Below, in pieces: positions 49,901-52,900 of a stretch of 64,000 nucleotides of DNA. A program made the position numbers. Positions within the stretch are counted from its first letter, which is position 1; each line of letters starts with the position of its first letter. The stretch lies in the NCBI RefSeq assembly GCF_056746865.1, contig NZ_CM163382.1. One strand, 5' to 3'.

Positions 49901-52900
49901 GCGGATTGATGCCCGCGGCGCAACGGCGGTGCCAGGGTTTATTGATGCTCACCTGCATATTGAATCCAGCATGATGACGCCGGTCACCTTTGAAACCGCT
50001 ACCCTGCCGCGCGGCCTGACGACCGTTATTTGCGACCCTCATGAAATCGTCAACGTGATGGGCGAAGCCGGTTTCGCCTGGTTTGCCCGCTGTGCCGAAC
50101 AGGCAAGGCAAAACCAATACTTGCAGGTCAGCTCTTGCGTACCCGCCCTGGAAGGCTGCGATGTTAACGGTGCCAGTTTTACCCTTGAACAGATGCTCGC
50201 CTGGCGGGACCATCCGCAGGTTACCGGCCTTGCAGAAATGATGGACTACCCTGGCGTAATTAGCGGGCAGAATGCGCTGCTCGATAAACTGGATGCATTT
50301 CGCCACCTGACGCTGGACGGTCACTGCCCGGGTTTGGGTGGTAAAGAACTTAACGCCTATATTGCTGCGGGTATTGAAAACTGCCACGAAAGTTATCAGC
50401 TGGAAGAAGGACGCCGGAAATTACAACTCGGCATGTCGTTGATGATCCGCGAAGGGTCCGCTGCCCGCAATCTCAACGCACTGGCACCGTTGATCAACGA
50501 ATTTAACAGCCCGCAATGCATGCTCTGTACTGATGACCGTAACCCGTGGGAGATCGCCCATGAAGGACACATCGATGCCTTAATTCGCCGCCTGATCGAA
50601 CAACACAATGTGCCGCTGCATGTGGCATATCGCGTCGCCAGCTGGTCGACGGCGCGCCACTTTGGTCTGAATCACCTCGGCTTACTGGCACCCGGTAAGC
50701 AGGCTGATATCGTCCTGTTGAGCGATGCGCGTAAGGTCACGGTGCAGCAGGTACTGGTGAAAGGCGAACCGATTGACGCGCAAACCTTACAGGCGGAAGA
50801 GTCGGCGAGACTGGCACAATCCGCTCCGCCATATGGCAACACCATTGCCCGCCAGCCAGTTTCCGCCAGCGACTTTGCCCTGCAATTTACGCCCGGAAAA
50901 CGCTATCGGGTCATTGACGTCATCCATAACGAATTGATTACGCACTCCCGCTCCAGCGTCTACAGCGAAAATGGTTTTGATCGCGATGATGTGTGCTTTA
51001 TTGCCGTACTTGAGCGTTACGGGCAACGTCTGGCTCCGGCTTGTGGTTTGCTCGGCGGCTTTGGTCTGAATGAAGGCGCGCTGGCTGCGACGGTCAGCCA
51101 TGACAGCCATAATATTGTGGTGATCGGTCGCAGTGCCGAAGAGATGGCGCTGGCGGTCAATCAGGTGATTCAGGATGGCGGCGGGCTGTGCGTGGTACGT
51201 AACGGACAGGTCCAAAGTCATCTACCGTTACCCATTGCCGGCCTGATGAGCACCGACACGGCGCAGTCACTGGCGGAGCAAATTGACGCCTTGAAAGCCG
51301 CCGCCCGTGAATGCGGTCCGTTACCGGATGAGCCGTTTATTCAGATGGCGTTTCTTTCCCTGCCAGTGATCCCCGCGCTGAAACTAACCAGTCAGGGGCT
51401 GTTTGATGGCGAGAAGTTTGCCTTCACCACGCTGGAAGTCACTGAATAATAAATAAATATCCTCCGGCATAGCCGGAGGTTTTTCAAATGCGCCTATAAG
51501 GCTCTCTTACCAGCCGCGCCCTAACAGGCGCACACGATCTGACATTTGCATCCAACTTCGTTACTTACGGCCCGTAAACGGGCTGCCCGGATAGGGAATC
51601 GATAACTGCTCTCCCATTTTATCCTCTTCAAGCTGGTGCTTTATGTAATCCTGTATCTTCGCCGTGTTCTTACCCACCGTATCGACGTAGTACCCTCTGC
51701 ACCAGAACTCCCTGTTCCTGTATTTGAATTTCAAATCACCAAACTGCTCGTAAAGCATCAGACTGCTTTTCCCTTTCAGATATCCCATAAAGCCGGATAC
51801 GCTCATTTTGGGCGGGATCTCCACAAGCATATGGATATGATCTGCACAGCATTCAGCTTCCAGAATCCGTACACTTTTCCACTCACACAGCTTTCTCAAA
51901 ATACTGCCTATTGCTCTACGCTTCTCTCTGTAGAACACCTGTCTTCGGTATTTTGGCGCAAATACTATGTGATATTTACAGTTCCATCGGGTGTGCGCTA
52001 AGCTCTTTTCGTTCCCCATTGGGACCCCCTTTTGATTTCTTGTTTGACACTTGCAGTTGCCAGACCGCAAGGTGTTTTAACAAATCAAAAGGGGTTTTAA
52101 TAACTGGCTTAAAGCTGAAAGCTTTCCGGAACCCCCAGCCTAGCTGGGGGTTTTCTGTGCACAAAAAAAGCCCGGCGTCATGCCGGGCAAAAGTCACCAG
52201 TTACGTTTATGCCACTGTCAACTGCTGAATTTTTTTCTCGCGGCGGATTTTGCGTTCTTCCATCACCGCCACTATCGCCATCAGGCAGATACAACCAATC
52301 GCGGCGATATCCAGCGCAGCGAAGGTGCCTGCCCAGCCGGTAAGGCCGAATACTGGCGTCCCATCGGCAATCATTCCCAGACCTAACTTGGCAAAGCTGT
52401 CGCCAATCAGGTAAGCAAAGGTGCCTTTAATACCATCGGCAGCGCCAATCGCTTTTTTAGGTACAAAGCCAACAGCAGCCACACCAATCAACAATTGCGG
52501 GCCAAAGACCAGGAAACCCAACGCAAAGAGAGAAGCCAGGTAGATATATTCGTTGCTGGCGTGTTGATACACACCGAGCGTGGCGATAATCAGCGCCAGC
52601 GCGATACAGGCCACCAGGCCACGGCGACCGTTCGCCAGGTCAGAGAGCCAGCCCCACAGCAGCGTACCGACCAGCGCGCCAGCTTCAAACAGCGTAAAGC
52701 CCTGAATCGCCACCGCTTTAGAGAGTTTCAGTTCCTGGAACGCGTACACAGTTGACCACTGGTCGATACCAATACGTACCACATAGAGGAAAATGTTGGC
52801 GAAGCACAGCAGCCAGATCACTTTGTTTTTCAGCACATACTCAACAAAGATCTGCCACTTGGTCATATCGGTAGATTCTGTCTCTTTGTCCTCTTCGCTG

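What the first reader, a model, noticed from the sequence alone, without database searches (positions are those of the whole stretch)
51490..52160. IS200-family element inserted between the ade terminator and the uhpT terminator
A Y1 HUH transposase gene (152 aa) flanked by hairpin structures lies in the ade-uhpT intergenic region, which has no genes in K-12. IS200 elements transpose rarely and are useful strain markers. The element sits next to the converging terminators of ade and uhpT.
Basis: partly seen in the sequence, partly recalled or inferred. Interest (0 to 1): 0.35.

Follow-up and report, generated by a model that had tools for sequence, protein, structure and literature searches.

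The report
Ordinary IS200C insertion beside uhpT terminator

Summary
The finding is real and the identification is correct. The window holds an intact IS200C element with tnpA on the minus strand (51561..52019, 152 aa). Pfam Y1_Tnp scores E 4e-38 and the NCBIfam IS200 equivalog E 2e-43. The HUH motif is H61-I-H63, with catalytic Y125 and Q129. The IS200 5'-UTR RNA structure (Rfam STnc490) scores 146 bits.

The coordinates and context are partly wrong. Seven independent copies and three empty sites put the element at about 51452..52164 (711-713 bp, with a 1-2 nt A/T ambiguity at the ends), not 51490..52160. K-12 and O157 have only one hairpin between ade and uhpT. The "ade terminator" (51461..51479 plus T5) is the IS right-end hairpin.

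RefSeq already annotates this insertion. It is present in 141 of 5,426 complete E. coli genomes. IS200C itself is in 2,063 genomes.

Side result: in 101 of 109 distinct insertion sites across several phyla, the left end lies 0-9 nt after a GC-rich hairpin plus T-run, which is an intrinsic terminator. Only 11% of intergenic T-runs have this, and 1 of 29 right-end flanks. A 2025-26 preprint already reports this tendency statistically.

Verdict: already known, low interest.

The parts
51452..52164 (-). Complete IS200C element. Left end (LE) is at 52164/52163 and right end (RE) at 51452/51453. The true unit is 711-712 bp; 1-2 terminal A/T bases cannot be assigned to element or flank.
   Evidence: The block is identical in 7 independent insertions. 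Empty sites give a net insertion of 712 bp here and 711 bp at mcbR-pqqU and yriB-uspA. Head-to-tail tandems share the terminal 2 nt. RefSeq annotates 'IS200/IS605-like element IS200C family transposase' at the identical locus in strain 118UI.
51561..52019 (-). tnpA, 152 aa plus stop. Y1 HUH transposase with H61-I62-H63, Y125 and Q129.
   Evidence: Pfam PF01797 E 3.8e-38. NCBIfam NF033573 IS200 equivalog 147.7 bits against a cut-off of 55. Alignment to IS608 TnpA 2a6m places DHIH and Y-I-x-x-Q in register. Y125F is the catalytically dead mutant of Salmonella IS200 TnpA (PMC4513863).
52130..52152 (-). LE subterminal hairpin AACCCCCAGC-TAG-GCTGGGGGTT (IS nt 12-34). By homology it is the TnpA-binding hairpin and a bidirectional terminator that shields tnpA from outside transcription.
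   Evidence: 10-bp perfect stem (I10). DNA fold z = -4.2. Positions 12-34 match the published terminator of Salmonella IS200 (PMC4513863), which stops about 85% of upstream transcripts (PMC5435999).
52026..52094 (-). [quoted passage not shown]
   Evidence: Rfam RF01405 STnc490, 146.1 bits, E 1.3e-31, spanning 52152..52029 on the minus strand. RNA fold -40 kcal/mol, z = -3.9. Inverted repeat I1. Published at nt 69-138.
52010..52100 (+). Expected position of the antisense RNA art200, placed by coordinate transfer from Salmonella IS200 (start at nt 153/154, about 90 nt).
   Evidence: Inference from PMC4513863, taking nt 1 = window 52163. Not tested here. Note that the Rfam hit is on the tnpA-sense strand.
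51461..51479 (-). RE subterminal hairpin CCTCCGGC-TAT-GCCGGAGG. It is a direct repeat of the LE hairpin. Read on the + strand it is followed by TTTTT and looks like a terminator for ade.
   Evidence: Absent from the empty sites and present in all copies. Direct repeat D1, 78% over 23 nt with the LE hairpin. Terminator-like on both strands. DNA fold z = -3.5.
51489..51532 (-). Second inverted repeat inside the right end (13-nt arms, 18-nt loop), 29 nt downstream of the tnpA stop codon. Role unknown; possibly the tnpA terminator.
   Evidence: I6. The same sequence motif is seen next to the RE hairpin in a distant copy (L074).
52163..52188 (-). Native target: the ancestral hairpin GCCCGGC-ATGAC-GCCGGGC (52188..52170) plus T-run. 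This is the uhpT terminator, and the IS left end directly abuts it.
   Evidence: Present in the K-12 and O157 empty sites. Terminator-like scan. DNA fold.

Best explanation
The region holds an intact, structurally complete copy of insertion sequence IS200C (IS200 group of the IS200/IS605 family). It was inherited vertically in one E. coli lineage.

The element encodes one protein, the 152-aa Y1 HUH transposase TnpA. By homology to IS608 and ISDra2, TnpA moves one DNA strand (the 'top' strand, here the window's minus strand) by 'peel and paste'. A TnpA dimer binds the two similar subterminal hairpins. It cuts at the left tip and after the right-end tail TTTAT(T), releases a single-stranded circle, and re-inserts it 3' of a short target that pairs with a guide just 5' of the left hairpin. 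In this element that guide position reads GAAAA, and the target is the T-run of the uhpT terminator.

Expression is expected to be almost silent, as shown for Salmonella IS200:
- The left-end hairpin terminates incoming transcription.
- The 5'-UTR stem-loop hides the ribosome-binding site.
- The antisense RNA art200 blocks translation.

The insertion separated ade from the ancestral shared hairpin. The element's right-end hairpin plus T5, starting 12 nt after the ade stop codon, probably now terminates ade. uhpT keeps its own terminator.

Shown here: identity, ends, motifs, structures, empty sites, distribution and target context. Inferred: the transposition chemistry, guide-target pairing, RNA regulation and effects on ade.
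For: - Protein family. NCBIfam equivalog 147.7 bits against a cut-off of 55.
- Catalytic motifs: aligned to solved IS608, ISDra2 and Sulfolobus TnpA structures. Y125 equals the published catalytic residue.
- RNA structure: Rfam STnc490 146 bits, fold z = -3.9.
- Ends: the same 713-bp block occurs at 7 unrelated loci. Empty sites show no duplication.
- End architecture: the LE and RE hairpins are direct repeats, each preceded by GAAAA, and there are no terminal inverted repeats. This matches the IS608 architecture described in PMC5934647.
- Published landmarks: the Salmonella IS200 landmarks (nt 12-34, 69-138, 153/154) map within 1 nt when nt 1 = 52163.
- Annotation and distribution: RefSeq annotates IS200C tnpA (WP_000526135.1) at this exact site in strain 118UI, which is 100% identical over 1,201 bp. 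The ade::IS junction is in 141 of 5,426 genomes. IS200C at >=80% coverage is in 2,063 genomes, with up to 35 places per genome.
- Strand orientation: the + strand has negative GC skew across the window. The IS top strand is therefore on the lagging-strand template, the orientation this family prefers (PMC5027513).
Against: - Nothing contradicts the identification.
- The exact length is uncertain. It is 712 bp against the K-12/O157 empty site but 711 bp at two other sites. The difference lies in an A/T homopolymer that varies by 1 bp even among occupied genomes (EcPF15).
- No activity, RNA or termination data exist for this copy.
- The Rfam hit lies on the tnpA-sense strand, whereas the literature describes STnc490/art200 as antisense. 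The hit therefore documents the 5'-UTR structure, not art200 itself.
Confidence: 0.95

Rival explanations
1. The copy is a fixed, effectively immobile resident. Any present role would be through RNA and terminators: the 5'tnpA and art200 small RNAs, and the terminators it supplies to ade and uhpT. It would not act as a transposon. This overlaps with the best explanation and does not replace it.
For: IS200 is described as mostly dormant, and its 5'tnpA RNA regulates Salmonella genes (PMC4513863; PMC5435999; bioRxiv 2024.06.26.600842). The insertion is shared unchanged by 141 genomes. Nearly all genomes with >=99% identical flanks carry it. The RE hairpin scores as a + strand terminator.
Against: The ORF, both ends and all motifs are intact. 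The same protein accession (WP_000526135.1) and ends occur at five of the six other E. coli loci fetched, chromosomal and plasmid; the sixth (L007) carries a variant TnpA, WP_000526115.1. IS200C occurs at up to 35 places per genome. The element has clearly moved within E. coli.
Confidence: 0.25
2. The gene is a REP-associated tyrosine transposase (RAYT), a domesticated relative of IS200 TnpA that acts on REP repeats, and not an IS200 transposase.
For: Weak NCBIfam match to REP_Tyr_transpos (E 8.5e-08, 32.2 bits).
Against: The score is far below that model's cut-off of 80 bits, while the IS200 equivalog scores 147.7 against 55. The gene moves together with fixed 5' and 3' ends as a 711-713-bp unit to many loci. 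No flanking REP pairs are present.
Confidence: 0.01
3. The strong association of IS200-type left ends with terminator hairpins is not target recognition. It would result from insertion at any T-run, followed by loss of harmful insertions, so that survivors pile up in the harmless space behind terminators.
For: The canonical family mechanism needs only a 4-5-nt target (PMC5934647). A T-run would pair with GAAAA. The preprint 10.1101/2025.07.22.666184 interprets the pattern as a persistence 'niche'. Insertions into coding sequence, such as hisD984, are known.
Against: Only 11% of T>=4 runs outside long ORFs have such a hairpin, against 93% (101/109) of left-end flanks. The geometry is fixed: the hairpin always lies on the top strand 0-9 nt before the tip. 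The right-end flank almost never has a hairpin (1/29).
Confidence: 0.35

Closest known systems
IS200 of Salmonella enterica (707 bp; Lam & Roth; Beuzon; Ellis & Haniford, PMC4513863)
   Same: A single tnpA of 152 aa with catalytic Y125. Terminator hairpin at nt 12-34, 5'-UTR stem-loop at nt 69-138, and the ATG placed so that art200 (nt 153/154) covers three codons. All of these map within 1 nt. The 19-nt LE hairpin matches the Rfam consensus exactly.
   Different: The E. coli IS200C unit is 711-712 bp, not 707 bp. RNA expression and transposition of this copy were not tested.
IS1541 of Yersinia (close IS200 relative)
   Same: Same LE hairpin, same ...CACAA tip and same RE hairpin CCTCCGGCATAGCCGGAGG in the 'TTTTCTGGGCACAA' loci L105-L131. 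Same terminator-adjacent context.
   Different: The LE tip differs at a few bases (GGGCAC against GTGCAC). The organism names of L105-L131 were not printed, so assigning them to Yersinia is my inference.
IS608 (Helicobacter pylori) and ISDra2: the mechanistic models of the IS200/IS605 family (PMC5934647; PDB 2a6m, 2vhg, 2xm3)
   Same: TnpA fold and the HUH/Tyr/Gln motifs align (E 4e-19). Subterminal hairpins are in direct orientation at both ends. There are no terminal inverted repeats and no target duplication. The element lies 3' of a short target retained in the left flank. A conserved tetranucleotide sits 5' of each hairpin foot where the guide lies in IS608.
   Different: No tnpB. The target is a T-run next to a hairpin, not TTAC or TTGAT. 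The guide role of GAAAA is inferred, not shown.
Group IIC introns, which home to intrinsic terminator stem-loops (recalled from memory: Robart, Seo & Zimmerly 2007; not checked here)
   Same: A mobile element that chooses sites immediately after terminator hairpins, which minimises harm to the host and blocks read-through into the element.
   Different: An unrelated mechanism (ribozyme and reverse transcriptase against a Y1 ssDNA transposase). This is only an analogy in target choice.

Membership tests
IS200/IS605 family, IS200 group | Transposase with a Y1_Tnp (PF01797) domain scoring above curated thresholds | tested here: met
   Pfam 130.7 bits against 23. NCBIfam IS200 equivalog 147.7 bits against 55.
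IS200/IS605 family, IS200 group | HUH metal-binding motif plus a single catalytic Tyr (and Gln) on the C-terminal helix | tested here: met
   H61-I62-H63 and Y125/Q129 align with H64/H66 and Y127/Q131 of IS608 TnpA. Y125F is the published dead mutant.
IS200/IS605 family, IS200 group | Similar subterminal hairpins at both ends in direct orientation, with no terminal inverted repeats | tested here: met
   D1 direct repeat of the two hairpins, and no inverted pair joining the tips. Alignment, folds.
IS200/IS605 family, IS200 group | No target-site duplication on insertion | tested here: met
   Three occupied/empty site pairs. The flanks rejoin without duplication. Only a 1-2-nt A/T ambiguity remains.
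IS200/IS605 family, IS200 group | Insertion 3' of a conserved short target that stays next to the left end | tested here: met
   Top-strand positions -6..-3 before the shared TT are 69-92% T in 109 distinct sites.
IS200/IS605 family, IS200 group | About 0.7 kb, tnpA only, no tnpB | tested here: met
   711-713 bp. tnpA (minus strand) is the only ORF in the element with a protein-family match; the shorter ORFs that overlap it (121, 105 and 73 aa) were not tested and I take them for chance.
IS200/IS605 family, IS200 group | IS200-specific 5'-UTR structure (LE terminator hairpin plus SD-sequestering stem-loop) | tested here: met
   Rfam RF01405 146.1 bits against a gathering score of 56. Fold.
IS200/IS605 family, IS200 group | Multiple near-identical copies with the same ends at unrelated loci (evidence of mobility) | tested here: met
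   7 loci. 2,063 genomes, up to 35 places per genome.
IS200/IS605 family, IS200 group | Strand-specific single-strand 'peel and paste' transposition through a circular ssDNA intermediate | not testable with these tools
   Inferred from homology to IS608. The orientation on the lagging-strand template is consistent.
RAYT (REP-associated tyrosine transposase) | Score above the NCBIfam REP_Tyr_transpos cut-off, and flanking REP repeats | tested here: not met
   32.2 bits against a cut-off of 80. No REP pairs around the gene.

The most novel reading that the evidence does not exclude
IS200-type Y1 transposons may actively recognise intrinsic transcription terminators as their target. The terminator T-tract would pair with the conserved GAAAA guide at the left end, and the adjacent GC-rich hairpin would also be required. 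The hairpin could be needed as extruded ssDNA on the lagging-strand template, or because the non-template strand is exposed in a paused terminating RNA polymerase.

The element would then always land co-oriented behind a terminator. Its own right-end hairpin plus T5 would replace the terminator for the convergent gene on the other side, making insertions nearly neutral. This structure-defined 'safe harbour' rule would help explain how a nearly silent IS persists across phyla. A recent preprint has reported it only statistically. It has not been shown biochemically for IS200 in the papers I could search; several older key papers were not available.
Probability: 0.5. Interest if true: 0.45.

Novelty: already known. 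Interest (0 to 1): 0.17.

Why it matters
For this window it matters little. The element is a known, annotated IS200C copy, and its main use is as a lineage marker. The ade::IS200C junction is found in 2.6% of complete E. coli genomes, including one labelled ST69.

The useful correction concerns annotation and terminator prediction at this locus. The hairpin after ade is transposon-borne, while the ancestral locus uses one shared hairpin.

The broader pattern could guide experiments on how Y1 transposases choose targets, and on why IS200 insertions are so harmless. In that pattern the left end sits directly behind an intrinsic terminator in 93% of 109 sites from many phyla, and the element carries terminator-like hairpins at both ends.

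Tried and rejected
- **Second copy in the window:** none found by blastn.
- **Nearest empty site:** a flank-only query meant to find the nearest empty-site relatives, to settle 711 against 712 bp, returned mainly occupied genomes. It showed only that the span varies by 1 bp among occupied genomes, so the exact length at this locus stays unresolved.
- **First hairpin count:** assuming a fixed 14-nt tip gave 72%. Redoing it on the top strand, with the tip located from the TTG[T/G] motif, gave 93%.
- **Papers not held:** Odaert 1998 on IS1541 insertion sites (PMC106867), the Siguier 2014 review (PMC7190074) and Barabas 2008 (PMC2680152) could not be read. I cannot exclude that terminator targeting by IS200/IS1541 is described there. 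PMC6006769 and PMC5027513 say nothing on it.
- **Weak Rfam matches:** Ysr202 (28.5 bits against a gathering score of 315) and SorX (20.7 against 46.6) are merely generic terminator hairpins.
- **RAYT assignment:** rejected.
- **Unrelated 19-mer hits:** some hits of the 19-mer in genome contigs (L021, L071, L092-L102) have unrelated flanks. They were excluded from the IS200 analysis by the tip filter.
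Full report
**1. What is in the sequence**

Between ade (adeD, + strand, 49683..51449) and uhpT (minus strand, 52207..53598), the window contains a minus-strand ORF whose ATG-initiated form is 51561..52019, 152 aa plus stop.

- It matches Pfam Y1_Tnp (PF01797) over the full domain, E 3.8e-38.
- It matches the NCBIfam equivalog 'IS200/IS605 family transposase' at 147.7 bits against a cut-off of 55.
- The RAYT model scores only 32 bits against its cut-off of 80.
- It aligns end to end with solved Y1 transposases: Sulfolobus 2ec2, IS608 2a6m/2vhg and ISDra2 2xm3. D60-H61-I62-H63 lies on the DHIH motif, and Y125-I-K-H-Q129 lies on the Y127...Q131 helix of IS608.
- Y125 is the residue mutated in the catalytically dead Salmonella IS200 TnpA(Y125F) (PMC4513863).

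**2. RNA and DNA structures**

- Rfam's IS200 5'-UTR family (RF01405, STnc490) matches 52152..52029 on the minus strand over its full length at 146 bits, E 1e-31.
- The left-end hairpin AACCCCCAGC-TAG-GCTGGGGGTT lies at 52152..52130.
- The long stem-loop 52094..52026 buries the Shine-Dalgarno sequence (-40 kcal/mol, z = -3.9).
- If IS nt 1 is window 52163, these correspond to nt 12-34 and nt 70-138, and the ATG is nt 145. The published Salmonella coordinates are a terminator at nt 12-34, a stem-loop at nt 69-138, and an art200 start at nt 153/154 covering the first three codons. The two sets agree within 1 nt.
- By transfer of these coordinates, art200 should lie on the + strand at about 52010..52100. 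This is an inference. The Rfam hit itself is on the tnpA-sense strand.

**3. Where the element really ends**

A megablast of 51250..52450 against 5,426 complete E. coli genomes gave three classes of hit:

- 141 genomes with the whole query.
- Thousands with only the two flanks, covering 41% of the query (488-489 bp in the rows listed).
- Many with only query positions about 202 to 920.

The K-12 (EMG2) and O157 empty sites read ...GAATAAT-AAAAAAA-GCCCGGCGTCATGCCGGGC-AAAAG.... That is a 45-bp spacer with a single hairpin, and no CCTCCGGCATAGCCGGAGG hairpin.

Six further IS200C copies at unrelated loci share exactly AATAAATATCCTCCGGCATAGCCGGAGG...GGGGGTTTTCTGTGCACAA with the window and diverge immediately outside it. 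These loci are mcbR-pqqU, yriB-uspA, yebQ-htpX, an IS4 remnant, prohibitin-tkt and a colicin plasmid. The shared block is window 51452..52164 (713 bp).

- Net insertion is 712 bp here, against the K-12 and O157 empty sites.
- Net insertion is 711 bp at mcbR-pqqU and yriB-uspA, against empty sites L010 and L011.
- Head-to-tail tandems in other genomes overlap by the two terminal A/T bases (L106, L107, L109).
- One occupied genome differs by 1 bp in span.

I conclude that the unit is 711 bp, possibly 712, with terminal A/T bases that cannot be assigned, and with no target duplication. Its 'ade terminator' (51461..51479 plus T5) is the IS right end.

**4. End architecture**

The two subterminal hairpins are direct repeats of one another, 78% over 23 nt (D1). 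On the top strand both are preceded by GAAAA. No inverted repeat joins the two tips.

This is the architecture described for IS608. TnpA binds imperfect palindromes on the top strand at both ends. Cleavage and target sequences pair with a guide tetranucleotide 5' of each hairpin foot. Insertion occurs 3' of the target, which remains in the left flank (PMC5934647).

On the top strand, the window reads GCCGGGC-TTTTTT(T)|(T)TGTGCACAGAAAA-CCCCCAGC... The flank T-run is complementary to the GAAAA at the guide position. The right end finishes with TTTAT(T). That GAAAA acts as the guide is my inference.

**5. Consequences at this locus (inferred)**

- uhpT keeps its native hairpin plus T7.
- tnpA lies directly downstream of uhpT and co-oriented with it. 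It is shielded by that terminator and by its own left-end terminator, which stops about 85% of incoming transcripts in Salmonella (PMC5435999).
- ade has been cut off from the ancestral hairpin. The first structure it now meets is the IS right-end hairpin followed by TTTTT, which begins 12 nt after the stop codon and scores as terminator-like on the + strand.
- The + strand has negative GC skew throughout the window. The IS top strand therefore lies on the lagging-strand template, which is the preferred orientation for this family (PMC5027513).

**6. Distribution**

- The window is 100% identical over 1,201 bp to strain 118UI (urine isolate, Mexico). RefSeq annotates that tnpA as 'IS200/IS605-like element IS200C family transposase', WP_000526135.1. 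The same protein accession is annotated at five of the six other loci; L007 carries a variant, WP_000526115.1.
- The ade::IS junction occurs in 141 of 5,426 genomes, one of them labelled O15:H18 ST69.
- Flanks at >=99% identity are almost all occupied. This fits a single ancestral insertion inherited vertically.
- IS200C at >=80% coverage is present in 2,063 genomes, with up to 35 places per genome and 7 in 118UI.
- There is no second copy in the window.

**7. Side result: target context**

At all seven E. coli sites, the left end sits 2-8 nt from a GC-rich hairpin belonging to a gene co-oriented with tnpA. The gene on the right-end side is convergent.

The organisms named in its listing include Vibrio, Brenneria, Edwardsiella, Pluralibacter, Budvicia, Mailhella/Desulfovibrio, Bacillota, Peptococcaceae, Oxalobacter, Elusimicrobia and Saccharibacteria assemblies.

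On the top strand, 101 of 109 distinct left-end flanks have a GC-rich stem of >=6 bp ending 0-9 nt (median 5) before the tip. Positions -6..-3 are 69-92% T. Controls with hairpin detectors of the same stringency:

| Set | With hairpin |
|---|---|
| IS200-type left-end flanks | 101/109 (93%) |
| Random positions | 4% |
| After A/T runs, any location | 6.4% |
| T>=4 runs outside long ORFs | 11% |
| T>=4 runs inside long ORFs | 4.5% |
| Right-end flanks | 1/29 |

Insertion at T-runs followed by loss of coding insertions does not by itself reproduce the pattern. Stronger selection for 3' intergenic positions cannot be excluded.

[quoted passage not shown] It interprets this as a persistence niche. 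I found no explicit biochemical description for IS200 in the searchable library. Several key older papers are not held.

**8. Verdict**

The element is a known, already annotated IS200C copy. Novelty: already known. Interest: low.

The corrections are to the boundaries (51452..52164) and to the reading of the locus. There is one ancestral shared hairpin, not two converging terminators, and the 'ade terminator' is the transposon's right end.

The terminator-adjacent target rule is the only aspect with some wider interest. It is partly published, and it needs biochemical tests to separate targeting from selection.

Noticed in passing
L012-L131 (genome-contig hits): The exact 19-nt IS200 left-end hairpin CCCCCAGCCTAGCTGGGGG occurs in assemblies from very distant phyla: Proteobacteria, Desulfobacterota, Bacillota, Elusimicrobia and Saccharibacteria MAGs. 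It often lies about 90-110 nt from contig ends, as expected for a multi-copy IS that breaks assemblies. Such conservation of a DNA hairpin across phyla suggests strong constraint or recent horizontal spread. MAG mis-binning was not excluded.
   Followed up: partly
L106, L107, L109: These are head-to-tail tandem IS200-type copies. The left tip of one copy is fused directly to the right-end hairpin region of another (GGGCACAA|TAAATATCCTCCGGCATAGCCGGAGG). Either the right end, which is itself a hairpin plus a T-rich tail, serves as a target, or circle-junction-like dimers were integrated.
   Followed up: partly
L021, L071, L092-L102: The same 19-mer appears in a different repeated context in gut Eubacteriales, Ruminococcus and Lachnospiraceae MAGs (for example ...ATAAGCAT[19-mer]TATTTCTTTAACGGGCGAAGCCC...), mostly 57-58 nt from contig ends. 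It does not have the IS200 left-tip signature. This may be another repeat family that shares the hairpin.
   Followed up: no
E. coli plasmids, hits H28, H29, H53; corresponds to window 51447-51592: An unannotated fragment of about 141-146 bp, 91-92% identical to the IS200C right end (hairpin plus the last codons of tnpA). It occurs alone on plasmids of about 92-93 kb, one of them from an O157:H7 strain. It may be a solo right-end remnant.
   Followed up: no
window 51489-51532: A second inverted repeat lies inside the IS right end (TGCGCCTATAAGG / CCTAACAGGCGCA, 18-nt loop), between the tnpA stop codon and the right-end hairpin. A similar sequence occurs in a distant Mailhella copy (L074). Its function is unknown; it may be the tnpA terminator or a second TnpA-related structure.
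   Followed up: no
window 52029-52152, minus strand: The Rfam family RF01405 'STnc490' matches the tnpA-sense strand and includes the left-end terminator hairpin. The literature describes STnc490/art200 as antisense to the tnpA 5'-UTR (PMC4513863). The Rfam model appears to represent the 5'-UTR (5'tnpA) orientation.
   Followed up: partly
window 51447-51456; L004, L006, L008 junctions: Bidirectional terminators sit so close to the convergent gene's stop codon that the IS right end (AATAAA...) lands within 0-2 nt of it. At yebQ, the prohibitin-family gene and mcbR, the terminal A's of the IS block form part of the annotated TAA stop codon.
   Followed up: partly
window 24001-32000 and 1-8000: GC content drops to 0.42 at 24-32 kb, against 0.51-0.55 in neighbouring 8-kb bins, and is 0.47 at 1-8 kb. 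This may be horizontally acquired DNA elsewhere in the window and is unrelated to this finding.
   Followed up: no
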